Source of the DNA: an uncultured Muribaculaceae bacterium
GTDB taxonomy: Bacteria; Bacillota_I; Bacilli_A; RF39; UBA660
DNA length: 64,000 nucleotides
Direction: 5' to 3'
NCBI GenBank assembly: GCA_964513345.1
Contig: CAZELY010000001.1
Coordinates: forward strand, 8,289 to 72,288
Positions 977 to 7,013 of this stretch are shown piece after piece; the stretch's first letter is position 1, and each line of letters starts with the position of its first letter. A program made the translations under genes and the position numbers. A model generated the notes under the pieces. The model had not been told where the DNA came from. It made no database searches and worked only from the letters and a program-made list of their open reading frames with translations.

Positions 977-3900
977 ATGAATAAAAAGAGTATTAAAAAG
1001 AAAGCGACTAATAGAAAAAATAGTAAAAGGAAGACGGTTAAGAAAAAAGGATTTACCCTAATAGAACTAATTGGGACAATAGTATTAATCAGCATGTTAG
1101 CCCTGATAATCGCTCCGGCAGCTAATAGAGTGGTCAAAAAAGGTAGAATCGTGGCTGAGGTTCAACAAGAAGAGAATGTTTTGTTAGCCGGTCGAAATTG
1201 GGGCGGAGATCACAAAAACTTGCTACCAGATAAAGGAACAATTAGGGATATTTCAATCGAAGATTTACAAAAAGAAGGATATTTGGATAAAGGTATCAAA
1301 AAAATAAGTACCGGTGAATTATTGACAGGATGTATTCGTATTACAAATGCATCAAATTCAACAAATGGTAAACAAAAATATGTATATACGTATTTTCCAG
1401 ATATTACAGTATGTATAATTGGATATGATGGTGGAGCAACTAACATTGATATAAAGGCCAAAGAAGTCATAAATGGTGTGGAACAAACAGATGAATATAA
1501 TGGAAATTGGACAAATAATCCAATCAAATTAATTGCCAATGTTACATCCAATGGTCAACCAATTCAAGCACCAAAATATATTTGGAGAAAAGGAACTGGT
1601 AATGATCAAACGACAACGACAACAAATACAAAACTAATTCAACTAAATAAAGAAGAAGGACAATTTTCATATTTTGTATCAACAAATGGAACTAACTACT
1701 ATGGACCTAAGAATTTGAAAATTGATACAAAAGCTCCGACAATAACGGCAACAAAATCGCCAGATGGAGCTAATGACAAAATACATTTTACAATTGAAGA
1801 TCACGGTTCAGGTGTTGCAGGATATCAATTCACTACTAGTAAGAACGCCCCAACCAATTGGACAAATGTAACTAACAACCCTACAAAATATGAAGATGAA
1901 GTAAATGAATTATCAGGAGTATATTATGTATGGGCAAAAGATAGTGCTGGAAACATTTCGTTACCGATGAAAGTTGCCGCTAAGCCAAGATGTGAAATTA
2001 CGCTAAGCGGAGATAAAGGAGAAGGAACATGGTATCGAAGTAATGTCACAGTTACTGTAAATCAAACAAATGGAACTAATTTAACAAGTAAAAAATTAAC
2101 CGGTAATGGACAAACAAGCACAACCGGAGTACTAACGCATTCAGCAGAAACAAATTCTGTTACTTATACAGCAGAAGTAACAAATGCCGCTGGAACAGGA
2201 ACATGTACAACGACATTTAAAGTTGATAAGACCCAACCAACATGTACAGTAACTCCTAGTGGAACAACAAGTGGCGGATGGTATACAGGAGATGCCACCA
2301 TAACGTTAACAAGACAAGATTCAGGAACTGTAGCAAGTGGTGTTGCCAGTGCATATGATTTTACTACAAGTGCAACAGCAACATATAATCAAAGTTCGAC
2401 CGCGGCAAGTATAACAGCAACACAAGGAAATACAACCGGTGTTACATATTATGGATATGTAAAAGATAAAGCTGGAAATACTAATAGTTGTCATACAAGT
2501 ACAATTAAAGTTGATAAAACAAAACCAACAGCTTCTATAGAAACAACCGCTACATTAAAAGCAACAAGTCAGACCGCAACATTAAAATGTAGTGATTCAG
2601 GATCTAAAGTAAAAAGCTATTATTGGGGAACAAGTGCGCCAACAACGTCAAGCACATATACGAGTATAACGGCAACGGATAGTATGAGTATAAATAAGAC
2701 GGTAAACGCTGCTGGAACATACTATTTAGCATGTAAGGATACTGCCGGTCATGTTTCAACAACAGTTTCGAAAGTATATCGCTCATATACTGTTAAAAAT
2801 ATGCTTCAAAATGTAAGTGGATCAACATATACAACCACAGATTATACACAAACATCAAGTGCAACTTATGTTGCACCAAAAGGAACCACATTAACTTTAG
2901 CAAGCATTTATTCAATTCCTAACGGTTCAAGAGCCGGAAGATTTGTTGGAATAAGTTCAGGTTCAGCAAGTACGACAGCTGCGACTCCTAGCACGGCTGC
3001 AGTTACTTTAAATAGTAATGCAACGTATACTGCGTGGTTTACACGAAATGTACTTTATTTCAAATATAAAACGAATGGTGGAACTTTAACAGCTACAACA
3101 ACAAGTTCAGATGGTGCAAACACTTATAAGTGGGCCACTGATTCAGATGGCTATATTACTAGATCTACCAATGGTGGAACTGCAACTTCGAATTTTTACT
3201 CATATAGATATGGCGTTGCATCGATTGATTTAGCTAATTATAATAATACTACATATTTAAATATAACTAAATCAGGTTATGTCGGTAAAAGTGGAGCCGA
3301 ATGGTTATGCGAAAGCGGTTGCAAAACATCTGGGAAAACATTTACCCATAACGCTTATAATTTAACTGCTCCTTCTGGTGGAGTACCAACTGATGAAATA
3401 TGTGATGCAAAATCATCAGATTGTACTGTAGTAGTTAAAGTTAATTGGGGGCCAACATGTTCAATTACTTTATCGGGAACAGTTGGAGAAAACAGTTGGT
3501 ATAAATCAAATGTTACTGTAACGATGACTATTGATGGAACCGCTACATCAAAAGGTTTAGCTACAACGCAAAATTCAACTAATGGGTCAACAAGTGTTAC
3601 TCATAGTACAAATGGAAGTAGTATTACATATTATGGATATGTTGCCAATGCTGGTGGAAGCAATACGTGTTCAAAAACATTTAAGATGGATAAAACCGCT
3701 CCAGGAGTACCTACATCAACAATAAGATATGATAGTGCAAGCGGTTCAGTAAGAACTAATGCTAATAGCTGGACTAACCGAACTTTATGGTGGGGTAGCT
3801 TTAGTGCAACAGATACAGGAACTAGTGGTGTCAATCACTATGAATATTCAACAAATTGTACTGGAACAAAGAGTGGTAATTTATCAAGCTCATATACATA

Positions 3901-5045: not shown

Positions 5046-7013
5046 ATGAAAAAAAATGGTTTTACGTTAATTGAATTAATTGGAACTATAATACTTCTTA
5101 GTTTATTGACACTAATTATAATGCCTACCGTGAATAGAGTCATAAAAAATAGTAAGATTGATGCTGATAATCAACAAGTTTTAAATATTGTACTAGCCGC
5201 GCGTAATTGGGCTGCTGATAATACTAAAGCATTACCAACAAAAGGAACAAGTAAAGATGTATCAATTTTGGAATTACAAAAATATGATTACTTAGATTCT
5301 GAAATTAAAAAACCTAGTACAAATGAAATAATGGGTGGATGTGTTAATATAAAAAACACTTCAAACACGACGACAATAAAACAAAAATATGATTATACCT
5401 ATCAAGAAGACAATAGTAAGTGTCTTACCGAATATACTGATAATGGTGAGATTAGTGTAGTAATTACTGCTAAAGAAATAATAAATGGTATCGAACAAGC
5501 AAATGAATATAATGGAAATTGGACAAGGAATCCAATTAAATTAATTGCCGATGTTAAATCCAATGGTAATCCTTTTCCAGCTTCTAAATATATGTGGAGA
5601 AAAGGCACAGACAATAATGAAATATCAACGACACCTGTGAACACGAAAACAGTGTACGCTAGTAGTGAAGAGGGACAAGTACTATACTATGTATCAATAA
5701 ATGGTAAAGATTATTTTGGTCCAAAAGAGTTGAAGATAGATGCCAAGGCGCCAGCTATTGTAGTTTTTAAAACCCAAAACTCCACTAATGATACAATTAG
5801 TTTTACGATTACCGATAATGGTTCAGGTGTTGCTGCCTATCAATTAACAACTAATAAAAACACTCCTACTAACTGGATTTCATTAAATGGTAATCCAAGA
5901 ACCTATAGCGATGAAGTTACTAAATCTTCAGGAATATATTATATGTGGTCTAAAGATAGTGCTGGTAATATTTCACTGCCAACCAGAATCATTGTTTTGC
6001 CAAGGTGTAAAATTACTCTTGAGGGAGCAATGGGTGATAATGGTTGGTACAAATCAAATGTTACCGTTATGATGACTAGCAATGGAGATACTACAGTAAA
6101 AGGTTTAGCCACGACCAAAAAATCAACAAATGGAAAAACAAGCGTAGTCCACACTGCTGATACAGATAATATCACATATTATGGATATGTCTCAAATGAT
6201 TTAGGGGCTGGAGAATGCTCAAAAACATTTAAAATGGATAAAACTGCTCCATCAATAGCAGCTTCGAATAGTAATCCTAATTGGACAAGTGGTAGCGTGG
6301 TTATAAGCGCTCTTGTAACTGATCATGGATCAGGACCAGCGCAAACAACATATCGCTATTCAGAAACAGGAACAGATTATAGTGATTGGGATAGTGGATC
6401 AACACCAGAATCTGTAGTTGGAACTTGGGCTGCAGAACGTGATGCCACAGTTTATATTGCTGCCAAGGATAAGGCAGGTAACTTAGCTACGAGATCAGCA
6501 GGTACTGTCAAAATCGATAAAACTGGTCCGTCAATTTCACCATCAAATAGTACGGGTGGAAGTTGGACAAGCGGTACAGTTGTAATATCAGCAAATTATT
6601 CTGATTCAGCAAGTGGAGTAAATGCTAATAAAGTATATTACTACTATCCTGGTGGTGGTTTAAATAACGACTGGGACGCAGCCCCAACAACGTCATATGT
6701 TAAAGGAACGTGGAGTGCTAATAGAGAACAAGAAGTAATTATAAGAGTATATGACAATGTTGGAAATTATACCGATAGCTCTGCTGGTTATGTTCGTATT
6801 GGATATTGGGGTTGTTATGGATGCTATGTACCAAACACATATTATGAATCATGTACTCCAGGTTTATCGTGCGGTGGCCTTATGGGAGTCCTTGCTGGAA
6901 AGTGTAGTGATTGGGGCTATAGTTGGAGTGATGGTACTTATGAATATTATTACTGCACGTATTATAATTGGGAAAACAATTGCAGCTATTGTGGCGGCGG
7001 TTGGACGACATAA
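5046..7013 (+). CDS. Large modular type IV pilin-like protein (655 aa), paralog of 977..4567
   Basis: MKKNG|FTLIELIGTIILLSLLTLII prepilin signal. The first ~320 aa align colinearly with ORF 977..4567 by eye. Ig-like modules (DKTAPS..., DKTGPS...). C-terminal 70 aa contain 8 Cys plus many Tyr/Trp/Gly. Confidence 0.85.
   Translation: MKKNGFTLIELIGTIILLSLLTLIIMPTVNRVIKNSKIDADNQQVLNIVLAARNWAADNTKALPTKGTSKDVSILELQKYDYLDSEIKKPSTNEIMGGCVNIKNTSNTTTIKQKYDYTYQEDNSKCLTEYTDNGEISVVITAKEIINGIEQANEYNGNWTRNPIKLIADVKSNGNPFPASKYMWRKGTDNNEISTTPVNTKTVYASSEEGQVLYYVSINGKDYFGPKELKIDAKAPAIVVFKTQNSTNDTISFTITDNGSGVAAYQLTTNKNTPTNWISLNGNPRTYSDEVTKSSGIYYMWSKDSAGNISLPTRIIVLPRCKITLEGAMGDNGWYKSNVTVMMTSNGDTTVKGLATTKKSTNGKTSVVHTADTDNITYYGYVSNDLGAGECSKTFKMDKTAPSIAASNSNPNWTSGSVVISALVTDHGSGPAQTTYRYSETGTDYSDWDSGSTPESVVGTWAAERDATVYIAAKDKAGNLATRSAGTVKIDKTGPSISPSNSTGGSWTSGTVVISANYSDSASGVNANKVYYYYPGGGLNNDWDAAPTTSYVKGTWSANREQEVIIRVYDNVGNYTDSSAGYVRIGYWGCYGCYVPNTYYESCTPGLSCGGLMGVLAGKCSDWGYSWSDGTYEYYYCTYYNWENNCSYCGGGWTT

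What the first reader, a model, noticed from the sequence alone, without database searches (positions are those of the whole stretch)
977..7013. Two tandem giant modular proteins with bona fide type IV prepilin N-termini (about 1,196 and 655 aa)
Seen in sequence: both ORFs start with a textbook class III signal. It has a basic leader ending in Gly, Phe at +1, Glu at +5 and a ~20-residue hydrophobic helix (KKKG|FTLIELIGTIVLISMLALII and MKKNG|FTLIELIGTIILLSLLTLII). The next ~120 aa look like a complete pilin head, with a Cys pair 27 residues apart (C122/C149 and C99/C126 in track numbering), like a D-region disulfide. Ordinary pilins stop near 150 aa. These continue for ~1,050 and ~520 aa of Ig-like modules delimited by D-K-T-x-P-T boundaries. 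Established knowledge: modular pilins exist (for example Streptococcus sanguinis PilB and PilC), but they carry one extra module and are several-fold smaller. Inference: these could be tip-located mega-adhesins of a Gram-positive type IV pilus. Alternatively the prepilin signal is used as a surface-display anchor. I am not aware of this architecture having been described.
Basis: partly seen in the sequence, partly recalled or inferred. Interest (0 to 1): 0.88.

Follow-up and report, generated by a model that had tools for sequence, protein, structure and literature searches.

The report
Giant modular type IV pilins
Two neighbouring genes (with a third just outside the window) encode pilus subunits in which a normal 120-residue type IV pilin is fused to a long rod of immunoglobulin-like domains ending in a cysteine-rich cap; this is an unusually large, uncharacterised version of the already described "modular pilin" design and is probably an adhesin of an uncultured gut bacterium.

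Summary
ORF A (977-4567, 1,196 aa) and ORF B (5046-7013, 655 aa) both start with a class III (prepilin) signal. It is followed by a complete small pilin module, an all-beta rod of Ig-like modules (about 10 in A, 5 in B) and a Cys/Trp/Tyr-rich tail. The head is 40-50% identical to more than 3,500 stand-alone pilins of about 120 aa. Two related genomes carry such a plain pilin in the same enolase-RNase J slot, and it ends at the Cys where the giant proteins continue.

- Raynaud et al. 2021 catalogued over 1,200 modular pilins, including multi-module ones up to 860 aa.
- Public metagenomes hold at least about 100 clusters of prepilin-signal proteins with these same modules, up to 1,770 aa. None is characterised, and Pfam does not detect their modules.
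- A third paralogue (1,022 aa) lies just left of the window. It shares 91% DNA identity with A for 2.7 kb and then has an unrelated tip.

The most likely function is a tip-displayed pilus adhesin with a conserved base and a variable distal end. Not verified: no prepilin peptidase or platform gene was found in about 88 kb, only a PilB-like ATPase and two small prepilins 9 kb away. I rate this a new variant of a known kind, of moderate interest.

The parts
1..546 (+). 3' part of the enolase gene (context). Its stop codon overlaps the start of the next ORF.
   Evidence: ORF translation. It is 82-87% identical to enolase in L001, L002 and L042. L085 shows the full 410-aa enolase with PF03952/PF00113.
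539..964 (+). Small N-terminally membrane-anchored protein (141 aa) of unknown function. It is translationally coupled to enolase and lies 12 nt upstream of pilin A.
   Evidence: It shows weak similarity to the 123-aa lipoprotein and to small ORFs next to giant pilins in L015, L021 and L022.
977..4567 (+). Giant modular type IV pilin A (1,196 aa), identical to database entry P0253.
977..1051 (+). A: 25-residue basic leader ending in Gly. The predicted prepilin-peptidase cleavage site is G25|F26.
   Evidence: Sequence MNKKSIKKKATNRKNSKRKTVKKKG|FTLIEL. N_methyl and TIGR02532 hits.
1052..1414 (+). A: pilin module (residues 26-146). It has F+1, E+5 and P+22, a helix of about 50 residues, a small beta-sheet and the Cys119-Cys146 pair.
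   Evidence: Alignment to stand-alone pilins. AF2 places a helix at 28-78 and strands at 89-140. PDB profile hits.
1424..4276 (+). A: rod of about 10 all-beta modules (residues about 150-1100). Eight are Ig-like modules bounded by D-K/T-T-x-P. A different beta module pair sits at about 600-825.
   Evidence: AF2 secondary structure, with pLDDT 80-90 over residues 155-905. Foldseek matches to GhpA, DSCAM, titin and SiiE. Boundary motif positions.
4277..4564 (+). A: C-terminal cap rich in Cys, Trp and Tyr (residues 1101-1196; 7 Cys, 16 Trp/Tyr).
   Evidence: Composition. pLDDT below 50. No Pfam hit. Comparable Cys-rich tails occur in homologues.
4580..4951 (+). Predicted lipoprotein (123 aa, lipobox IAG|C), 12 nt after the stop of A. 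Function unknown.
4957..4998 (+). AT-rich hairpin followed by a U-run: an intrinsic-terminator-like site that ends the eno-ORF141-A-lipoprotein unit.
   Evidence: strand folding gives -14.4 kcal/mol with z = -5.0. Sequence shown.
5011..5019 (+). Extended -10 element TGaTATAAT, 27 nt upstream of the start of B (promoter-like; read from the sequence only).
   Evidence: Sequence. The consensus scan did not list it because there is no -35 hexamer.
5046..7013 (+). Giant modular type IV pilin B (655 aa), identical to database entry P0133.
5046..5423 (+). B: 5-residue leader (MKKNG|F) plus pilin module (residues 6-126) with the Cys99-Cys126 pair.
   Evidence: AF2 head model with pLDDT 88, helix 8-58 and strands 68-73, 99-104 and 115-120..
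5433..6803 (+). B: five Ig-like modules (residues about 130-586).
   Evidence: Alignment to A. Weak OmpL47-type and Big_13 hits.
6804..7010 (+). B: C-terminal cap rich in Cys, Tyr, Trp and Gly (residues 587-655; 8 Cys).
16278..17801 (-). PilB/GspE-type assembly ATPase (507 aa) with a Q/P-rich tail. It is the only type IV filament machinery gene found.
   Evidence: PF00437 at 4e-123. TIGR02538 and TIGR02533 at about 1e-142.
17906..18436 (+). Small prepilin-like protein (MKKINNKG|FLLVETMVV), divergently transcribed from the ATPase. Candidate minor pilin.
18458..18991 (+). Small prepilin (MKNNKG|FTVVELLASF, 177 aa). Candidate minor pilin.
   Evidence: PF07963 at 1.2e-4..

Best explanation
A and B, together with a third paralogue just left of the window, are giant modular type IV pilins of an uncultured low-GC Bacilli species.

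Shown:
- Each protein has a class III signal peptide.
- Each has a complete small pilin module, homologous along its whole length to stand-alone 120-aa pilins.
- A rod of Ig-like beta-sandwich modules is fused directly after the ancestral C-terminal Cys.
- Each ends in a Cys/aromatic-rich cap.

Inferred mechanism:
1. The protein is inserted through Sec, with alpha1 in the membrane and the rest outside.
2. A prepilin peptidase cuts after the leader Gly and methylates Phe+1.
3. The pilin module is then incorporated by the type IV filament machinery, as a low-abundance and most likely tip-located subunit. A PilB-like ATPase and two small prepilins lie 9-12 kb downstream.
4. The filament thereby presents a rod with a variable distal end that binds a ligand (adhesion). 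At roughly 4 nm per Ig-like module, my estimate is a rod of about 20 nm for B and about 40 nm for A.

The base (alpha1, head, modules 1-3) is the conserved part and would do the docking. The distal modules and the cap are the variable part and would determine specificity.
For: Class III signal:
- N_methyl and TIGR02532 hits.
- G-1, F+1 and E+5 are invariant, and P+22 is present in 92 of 104 head-family members, including A and B.

Head is a whole pilin:
- It is 40-50% identical to more than 3,500 database proteins. The best 120 are almost all 113-150 aa.
- In the subset of 102 stand-alone members aligned in A3, lengths are 113-147 aa with a median of 123.
- A profile of the family hits only type IV pilins and pseudopilins in the PDB at E below 1e-3: Geobacter PilA 2e-10, S. 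sanguinis PilE1 1.5e-9, GspG, and N. meningitidis PilE over 100 positions.
- The AF2 head model (pLDDT 88) shows a 51-residue N-terminal helix and a 3-stranded sheet.
- Of 35 family members with Cys at the first position, 34 also have the C-terminal Cys. Stand-alone pilins end 0-2 residues after that Cys.

Orthologous slot: L001 and L002 (RNase J 81-83% identical) carry a plain pilin of about 125 aa, 48-49% identical to the head, exactly between enolase and RNase J.

Rod:
- AF2 predicts all-beta structure with pLDDT 80-90 over residues 155-905.
- Foldseek matches Ig-domain strings: GhpA 1.9e-15, DSCAM, titin, and the SiiE adhesin with target TM-score 0.5.

Conserved base, variable tip:
- Between A and B, identity is 71% in alpha1N, 52% in the rest of the head and 51-61% in modules 1-3. 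It falls to 25-37% in the distal modules and tails.
- Paralogue 0 and A share 91% DNA identity for 2.7 kb and are then unrelated.

Machinery: a PilB/GspE-type ATPase and two prepilins lie in the window. L022 shows the same layout, a 631-aa modular pilin about 7 kb from the ATPase.

Real genes: B is 100% identical on 5 independent contigs. A is 97-100% identical in several metagenomes.

Precedent: modular pilins such as S. sanguinis PilB are adhesins presented by type IV pili (PMC8179133).
Against: - No platform protein (T2SSF), prepilin peptidase (A24) or PilM/N/O homologue was found in the window, in the 14 kb to its left, in the 10 kb to its right, or around pilin genes in the roughly 70 loci (on the order of 1 Mb) fetched from related MAGs. 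Processing and assembly capacity in this organism is therefore unverified.
- Foldseek with the head model gave no significant PDB match (best E = 1.9). The fold claim therefore rests on topology and sequence profiles.
- No plain pilin of the head family was seen near the locus in this species, so the filament into which these subunits would insert is not identified.
- The C-terminal caps are not confidently modelled (pLDDT below 50).
- Adhesion, tip location and ligand are pure inference.
Confidence: 0.6

Rival explanations
1. Wall-spanning stalk adhesins that use the prepilin signal only as a processed membrane anchor. After cleavage the alpha1 helix stays in the membrane, the proteins are never polymerised, and the 20-40 nm Ig rod carries the cap through the Gram-positive wall to the surface.
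For: - No platform or peptidase genes, and no plain major pilin, were found near the locus.
- By my estimate from the module count, the rod is about as long as a Gram-positive wall is thick.
- Small membrane-anchored partner ORFs accompany the genes.
- From my own knowledge, not tested here: archaeal sugar-binding proteins use class III signals without forming long filaments.
Against: - The complete pilin head is retained, with E+5, P+22 and the Cys pair, which are features needed for filament packing rather than for anchoring.
- The head is as conserved between A and B as the proximal modules are.
- An assembly ATPase and other prepilins are present in the window.
Confidence: 0.2
2. Abundant shaft subunits. 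The giant pilins replaced the ancestral plain pilin in the enolase-linked, presumably highly expressed, slot. They polymerise along the whole fibre and give a 'bottle-brush' pilus, by analogy with giant flagellins.
For: - In L001 and L002 the same slot holds a plain pilin whose best NCBIfam match is the ComGC major pilin, and whose start overlaps the enolase stop.
- Here the slot holds only giant pilins, co-transcribed with enolase.
Against: - A fibre carrying a 40-nm rod on every subunit would be hard to pass through peptidoglycan.
- Three divergent paralogues with variable tips fit low-copy specificity subunits better.
- Characterised modular pilins are minor subunits (PMC8179133).
Confidence: 0.08
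3. Components of a competence (Com) or type II secretion-like pseudopilus, serving DNA uptake or protein secretion rather than adhesion.
For: - The head and the plain orthologues give weak best hits to ComGC, ComGE and GspG models.
- A single ATPase with a few prepilins and no PilT is Com-like.
Against: - All those hits are far below the family cutoffs and are confined to the N-terminal helix.
- The ATPase scores far better against PilB and GspE models than against ComGA.
- Rods of Ig-like modules with variable Cys-rich caps are the hallmark of adhesins.
Confidence: 0.08
4. Not pilins at all: ordinary Sec-dependent surface proteins whose N-terminus resembles a prepilin signal by chance, or mis-assembled or pseudogene ORFs.
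For: B's PF07963 score (19.9 bits) is just below Pfam's cutoff.
Against: - The full-length head is homologous to thousands of stand-alone prepilins.
- The orthologous slot holds a plain pilin.
- G-1, F+1 and E+5 are invariant.
- Identical ORFs occur on independent contigs.
- There is no LPXTG motif or other C-terminal anchor.
Confidence: 0.02

Closest known systems
Modular type IV pilins PilB (vWA module) and PilC (lectin module) of Streptococcus sanguinis (Raynaud et al. 2021, PMC8179133; PMC9934059)
   Same: - A class III signal, then a small complete pilin module, then functional module(s) grafted at the C-terminus.
- The host is a monoderm.
- The proposed role is adhesion, presented by the pilus.
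   Different: - PilB and PilC carry one recognisable module and are about 50 kDa. A carries about 10 beta modules plus a cap (about 125 kDa), and none of its modules is detected by Pfam.
- The S. sanguinis genes lie inside a complete pil operon. These lie next to enolase, with no machinery gene adjacent.
Multi-module pilins listed in the InterPro census of Raynaud et al. 2021 (Dataset S1). Examples are IPR012902 followed by up to 13 copies of IPR013211, 5 of He_PIG, 5 of Big_9, 5 of the Listeria-Bacteroides repeat or 9 of DUF285. The example quoted in the text is 860 aa.
   Same: A prepilin N-terminus followed by arrays of repeated, mostly Ig-like modules.
   Different: - Those entries are only catalogued by signature.
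- The present family escapes such a census because its modules have no signatures.
- This family reaches 1,196 aa here and 1,770 aa in relatives.
- It adds a hypervariable Cys-rich cap.
CofB and TcpB, large minor pilins of type IVb pili. This description follows PMC8179133 and my own knowledge.
   Same: A pilin domain followed by beta-repeat and beta-sandwich domains. They are thought to sit at the pilus tip and mediate ligand or adaptor binding.
   Different: - They come from diderm type IVb systems.
- They have two extra domains and are about 500 aa.
- No sequence relationship was detected here.
KilN large tip pilins of the Myxococcus xanthus Kil (Tad) pilus, which has four interchangeable KilLMN tip complexes (PMC12075869)
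   Same: Several paralogous enlarged pilins that would give one filament alternative, adaptable tips.
   Different: - They belong to a Tad-type system in a diderm.
- The extra domain is a single alpha/beta domain, not an Ig rod.
Giant Ig-repeat surface fibres: the Salmonella SiiE adhesin and the Aureispira grappling-hook protein GhpA
   Same: They are the best structural matches to the rod. Strings of bacterial Ig-like domains act as an extended stalk for a distal binding function.
   Different: - They are secreted or anchored by type I secretion or T9SS-type routes, not by a pilin module.
- Sequence identity is only 12-19%.

Membership tests
Type IV pilin (type IV filament subunit) | Class III signal peptide: a short hydrophilic/basic leader ending in Gly, a hydrophobic +1 residue (Phe), Glu at +5, and about 20 hydrophobic residues | tested here: met
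   - Sequences: KKKG|FTLIELIGTIVLISMLALIIAP (A) and MKKNG|FTLIELIGTIILLSLLTLIIMP (B).
- PF07963 and TIGR02532 hits.
- G-1, F+1 and E+5 are invariant in 104 family members.
Type IV pilin (type IV filament subunit) | Sequence homology to established pilins | tested here: met
   A profile of the head family hits 20 PDB type IV pilins or pseudopilins at E below 1e-3 and nothing else at that level. Most alignments cover the alpha1 helix only. The N. meningitidis PilE alignment covers about 100 positions.
Type IV pilin (type IV filament subunit) | Pilin fold: an extended N-terminal alpha1 helix of about 50 residues packed against an antiparallel beta-sheet | tested here: inconclusive
   The AF2 model (pLDDT 88) shows helix 8-58 followed by three strands, which is the expected topology. 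However, Foldseek against the PDB gave no significant match (best E = 1.9; S. sanguinis PilE1 only at rank 33).
Type IV pilin (type IV filament subunit) | Cleavage and N-methylation by a prepilin peptidase (PilD/ComC, peptidase A24) | not testable with these tools
   No A24 homologue was found in the window or its fetched flanks. The rest of the genome could not be reached. Processing itself needs proteomics.
Type IV pilin (type IV filament subunit) | A cognate assembly machinery in the genome: extension ATPase plus platform protein | tested here: inconclusive
   A PilB/GspE-type ATPase is present at 16278-17801. No T2SSF platform protein was found in about 88 kb.
Type IV pilin (type IV filament subunit) | Polymerisation into a filament | not testable with these tools
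   Requires pilus purification, immunogold labelling or cryo-EM.
Modular pilin (sensu Raynaud et al. 2021) | A complete N-terminal pilin module | tested here: met
   The head aligns end to end with stand-alone pilins, which terminate at the second Cys.
Modular pilin (sensu Raynaud et al. 2021) | C-terminal module(s) not specific to type IV pilus biology, grafted onto the pilin | tested here: met
   - Ig-like beta modules.
- The same modules occur in proteins without a prepilin signal. Examples are OmpL47-type, Big_13, Big_3_3 and HYR-containing proteins of Brevibacillus, Humibacillus and others.
Modular pilin (sensu Raynaud et al. 2021) | The extra module has a direct role in a pilus function such as adhesion | not testable with these tools
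   Inference only.
Sortase-assembled Gram-positive pilins / LPXTG surface proteins | A C-terminal LPXTG sorting signal followed by a hydrophobic segment and a positive tail, with an N-terminal Sec signal | tested here: not met
   - The C-termini are ...NYSGWSWSC and ...CSYCGGGWTT, with no LPXTG or Gram_pos_anchor hit.
- By contrast, the ORF at 29399-30925 in the same window does hit PF00746.

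The most novel reading that the evidence does not exclude
In this lineage the giant pilins are not rare tip decorations. 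They replaced the ancestral enolase-coupled plain (major-type) pilin. Either they form the bulk of a 'bottle-brush' filament, or they are a new, filament-independent class of peptidase-processed, wall-spanning stalk adhesins. In both versions the hypervariable Cys-rich caps would engage host ligands, for example Cys-rich mucins, through thiol chemistry. The absence of any platform or peptidase gene near pilin genes in the roughly 70 related-MAG loci examined (on the order of 1 Mb) would then reflect a reduced or unconventional assembly system.
Probability: 0.12. Interest if true: 0.8.

Novelty: new variant of a known kind. Interest (0 to 1): 0.5.

Why it matters
Modular pilins are the current explanation for how simple type IV filaments gain many functions, but only single-module examples have been studied experimentally.

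This locus shows the design pushed to the scale of giant adhesins. The proteins reach 1,000-1,800 aa, with ten or more Ig-like modules and a variable Cys-rich cap. They occur in uncultured gut Bacilli, whose surface biology is essentially unknown.

The locus also offers an unusually clean evolutionary snapshot. The plain pilin survives in the same chromosomal slot in relatives, the graft point is visible at the residue level, and three paralogues share a stalk but differ at the tip.

Finally, signature-based censuses of modular pilins miss this family entirely, because its modules have no Pfam models. The repertoire of such proteins is therefore larger than reported.

Tried and rejected
- Pfam and NCBIfam scans of whole proteins and of sub-fragments. 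Only N_methyl and one weak OmpL47/Big_13 hit came up, and the modules and caps match no family.
- phmmer of A and B against the PDB. Only the N-terminal helix matched, weakly.
- Foldseek of the head model against the PDB gave nothing significant. The probable reason is that the long free helix dominates the model.
- The first homologue search, with B residues 1-330, returned only 8 hits and missed the identical database entry P0133. The word prefilter was the cause.
- An exact look-up of P0130 failed. Its sibling P0252 worked.
- A 72-sequence alignment of giant proteins crashed. A 35-sequence version was used instead.
- tblastn with Paenibacillus PilC, PilD, PilMN, PilO and PilT against the window and all 87 loci. 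There were no hits in the window or in the gut-Bacilli loci other than the ATPase.
- One-hop extension of the contig to the right and to the left. No machinery genes were found.
- The promoter/terminator consensus scan of 1-7300 gave counts no higher than shuffled sequence.
- A DNA repeat search found only the expected paralogous module repeats. There were no inverted repeats, so nothing suggests an invertible switch.
- The small partner ORFs show only weak mutual similarity (24-29%), so homology among them is not established.
- Literature searches for 'giant pilin', 'large pilin' and similar terms found no description of this family.

Full report
**1. What is in the sequence**

The window is low-GC DNA (26-37% G+C in 2-kb windows). 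Two long + strand ORFs lie between the 3' end of enolase (1-546) and a convergent RNase J gene (7021-8703, minus strand).
- ORF A runs from ATG 977 to 4567 (1,196 aa), with an AGGTGA ribosome-binding site just upstream.
- ORF B runs from 5046 to 7013 (655 aa).

A begins MNKKSIKKKATNRKNSKRKTVKKKG|FTLIELIGTIVLISMLALIIAP. B begins MKKNG|FTLIELIGTIILLSLLTLIIMP. Both hit Pfam N_methyl (A 22.5 bits, above the 21.2 cutoff; B 19.9 bits, just below) and TIGR02532 (both above cutoff). A six-frame scan of the whole window finds this motif only four times, each at the start of an ORF. The other two are small prepilins at 17906-18436 and 18458-18991. A and B are 47% identical over 557 aa.

**2. The head is a complete pilin**

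A profile built from the heads and their first relatives retrieves more than 3,500 proteins from 5.8 billion. The best 120 are almost all stand-alone prepilins of 113-150 aa, 33-52% identical to the head of B. In an alignment of 104 members:
- G-1, F+1 and E+5 are invariant.
- Pro+22 is present in 92.
- 34 of the 35 sequences with Cys at the first position also have the C-terminal Cys.
- In 31 of those 34, the protein ends 0-2 residues after that Cys.

The giant proteins simply continue after it (...SKC|LTEYTD... in B and ...ITVC|IIGYDG... in A). The graft point is therefore visible at residue resolution.

The same profile hits 20 type IV pilins and pseudopilins in the PDB at E below 1e-3 and nothing else at that level. 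Examples are Geobacter PilA at 2e-10, S. sanguinis PilE1 at 1.5e-9, GspG, PpdD, and N. meningitidis PilE over about 100 positions.

An AF2 model of B residues 1-135 with this alignment has pLDDT 88. It shows a 51-residue N-terminal helix followed by three strands. Foldseek of that model against the PDB found nothing significant. I therefore treat the fold as supported by topology and sequence, not by structural search.

**3. Evolutionary origin**

In two related genomes, L001 and L002, RNase J is 81-83% identical and the enolase C-terminus 86-87% identical to the window. There, the enolase-RNase J interval holds one plain pilin of about 125 aa, 48-49% identical to the head of B, whose start overlaps the enolase stop.

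In the window the same interval holds four genes:
- a 141-aa membrane-anchored ORF, whose start overlaps the enolase stop;
- A, 12 nt further on;
- a 123-aa lipoprotein, 12 nt after A;
- B.

An AT-rich hairpin with a U-run (-14.4 kcal/mol, z = -5) and an extended -10 element separate the lipoprotein gene from B.

A is identical to database entry P0253 and B to P0133. Both come from a 152-kb NCBI contig. The same species is present in several ENA metagenome assemblies. One of these contigs (L085) shows a third paralogue of 1,022 aa immediately upstream of enolase, preceded by an AraC-type regulator. This third paralogue and A share 91% DNA identity over the first 2.7 kb and then become unrelated. 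Between A and B, identity falls from 71% (alpha1N), 52% (rest of the head) and 51-61% (modules 1-3) to 25-37% in the distal modules and tails. The base is conserved and the tip is variable.

**4. The extension**

An AF2 model of full-length A (35-sequence alignment, mean pLDDT 70) is all-beta from residue 155 to about 905, with pLDDT 80-90. It is poorly defined from 1004 to the end. Foldseek matches strings of Ig-like domains: the grappling-hook protein GhpA at 1.9e-15, DSCAM, titin I-band, the SiiE adhesin with target TM-score 0.5, and macroglobulin MG domains.

The repeated unit is about 90 aa: P-x-C-x-I-x-x-S-G...W-Y...D-x-x-S-G...Y-G-Y-V-x-D-x-A-G-N...C...K-x-D-K-T-x-P. Pfam does not recognise it. 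Distant homologues carry Big_13, Big_3_3, Big_3_2, HYR or OmpL47-type annotations.

A residues about 600-825 are a different beta module pair. It is shared at 54-55% identity with other giant prepilin proteins (P0134, P0136) that elsewhere carry Listeria-Bacteroides repeats.

The last 95 residues of A and 70 of B are rich in Cys, Trp, Tyr and Gly and have no family match. Comparable but hypervariable Cys-rich tails end most relatives.

**5. How common it is**

Of the 120 best 90%-identity clusters that share the modules, 61 carry a class III signal. Their median length is 1,117 aa and the maximum 1,770 aa; 44 are at least 860 aa and 19 are at least 1,196 aa. An exhaustive HMMER search of 1.84 billion representatives with B gives 4,001 hits at E up to 1e-3, 919 at up to 1e-10 and 74 at up to 1e-30. 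Of the 139 new proteins among the top 150, 49 have a class III signal, at 124-1,465 aa. One relative, MBE6150243.1 (1,758 aa), is annotated only as a 'prepilin-type N-terminal cleavage/methylation domain-containing protein'.

In the genome scan, giant prepilins of 585-1,534 aa occur in several loci from uncultured gut Bacilli or 'Tenericutes' MAGs, sometimes in pairs (L015 and L021).

**6. Machinery**

The window contains a PilB/GspE-type ATPase at 16278-17801 (PF00437 4e-123; TIGR02538 1.7e-142). Two small prepilins are divergently transcribed from it. L022 has the same ATPase-prepilin arrangement about 7 kb from a 631-aa modular pilin.

I took PilC, PilD, PilMN, PilO and PilT from a classical Paenibacillus operon, verified against Pfam, and used them as tblastn queries. 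No homologue appeared in the window, in its fetched flanks or in any gut-Bacilli locus. Processing and assembly are therefore plausible but unproven for this organism.

**7. Interpretation**

The best-supported reading is that A, B and the third paralogue are giant modular type IV pilins. A conserved pilin base docks into a type IV filament, most likely at the tip or at low copy number. An Ig-like rod serves as a spacer, and a variable distal part with a Cys-rich cap provides ligand specificity.

Rivals:
- A non-polymerised, wall-spanning stalk that uses alpha1 as an anchor (0.2).
- An abundant shaft subunit (0.08).
- A Com or T2SS-like role (0.08).
- Not a pilin at all (0.02).

The retention of E+5, P+22, the Cys pair and head conservation argue for filament incorporation. 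The missing machinery genes and the missing plain pilin keep the anchor model alive.

**8. Comparison with what is known**

Raynaud et al. 2021 (PMC8179133) defined modular pilins and showed that S. sanguinis PilB is an adhesin. They listed 1,219 proteins in 264 architectures, including multi-repeat arrays and an 860-aa example, and they predicted that many more exist with modules lacking signatures. The present proteins are exactly such cases, at larger scale. CofB and TcpB, the KilN large tip pilins with interchangeable tip complexes (PMC12075869) and the PilY1 adhesins are functional analogues. I found no paper describing this family.

**Verdict:** a real feature, correctly recognised as pilin-headed. 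It is a new variant of a known kind, not a new category.

Noticed in passing
L085:10001-13069 (just left of window position 1): A third giant pilin paralogue (1,022 aa; P0252/P0130) lies immediately upstream of enolase. It is preceded by a 166-aa AraC-type regulator (L085:9204-9704) and a 50-aa ORF. The enolase gene is therefore flanked by giant pilin genes on both sides.
   Followed up: partly
window 16278-16600 (3' end of the ATPase gene, minus strand): The PilB-like ATPase ends in a low-complexity tail of about 110 residues rich in Gln, Pro and Tyr (QQPVRQQYQPPVQPTYQQPQ...). The L022 orthologue is shorter (433 aa), and one metagenomic copy (L083) is split into 149-aa and 314-aa ORFs.
   Followed up: no
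window 539-964 and 4580-4951; also L015:9481-9978, L021:17357-17737, L022:11897-12331: Small (123-165 aa) N-terminally membrane- or lipid-anchored ORFs sit a few nucleotides from giant pilin genes in several genomes. Their mutual similarity is weak (24-29%). They might be an accessory factor.
   Followed up: partly
C-termini of P0201, P0210, P0225, P0189, P0152, P0165 and others: The Cys-rich caps of the giant pilins are hypervariable. Some consist of short Cys-containing repeats (for example YACGSYACGSYVCGSY and NGNCNSWRNGNCNSW). Two proteins, P0152 and P0165, carry thrombospondin-type-1 Pfam hits.
   Followed up: no
about 70 gut-Bacilli MAG loci among L001-L080: Pilin genes of this lineage lie singly or in small groups among housekeeping genes (eno, rnj, ffh/ftsY, der, smc). 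No PilC, PilD or PilMNO gene lies within 10 kb. The Paenibacillus, Cohnella, Neobacillus and Trichococcus loci from the same scan show classical pil operons.
   Followed up: partly
window 29399-30925 and 31047-32393: Two paralogous surface proteins with a thioester domain (PF08341). The first also hits the LPXTG anchor model. Both contain repeated CEYDxxxKKYYGKDGSEV units. They represent a second, sortase-type adhesin system in the same window.
   Followed up: no
window 32545-33408 and 33537-34295: Two paralogous proteins with (E/D)PTP-repeat linkers and a C-terminal hydrophobic segment, and no Pfam match. The next gene downstream encodes a very acidic 611-aa protein (34446-36281).
   Followed up: no
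window 39438-39606, 12225-12301, 15656-15732: 6S RNA (54 bits), tRNA-Met (CAT) and tRNA-Glu (CTC).
   Followed up: yes
window 52324-53307, 18986-19963; L086:14807-15436: Sporulation-type genes are present: a SpoIVB-like Peptidase_S55, a YlbJ-like Gate-domain membrane protein and SpoIIM. Together with a PASTA-domain protein and an LPXTG protein, they suggest a walled, possibly spore-forming Bacillota species rather than a true Tenericute.
   Followed up: no
L001 (CAZZCM010000010.1): The contig is labelled 'uncultured Muribaculaceae'. Its eno-pilin-rnj block is 81-86% identical at protein level to this Bacilli window, so the contig is probably mis-binned.
   Followed up: no
The word-prefiltered homologue search with B residues 1-330 failed to return the 100%-identical database entry P0133. 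Low hit counts from that tool should not be read as rarity.
   Followed up: yes
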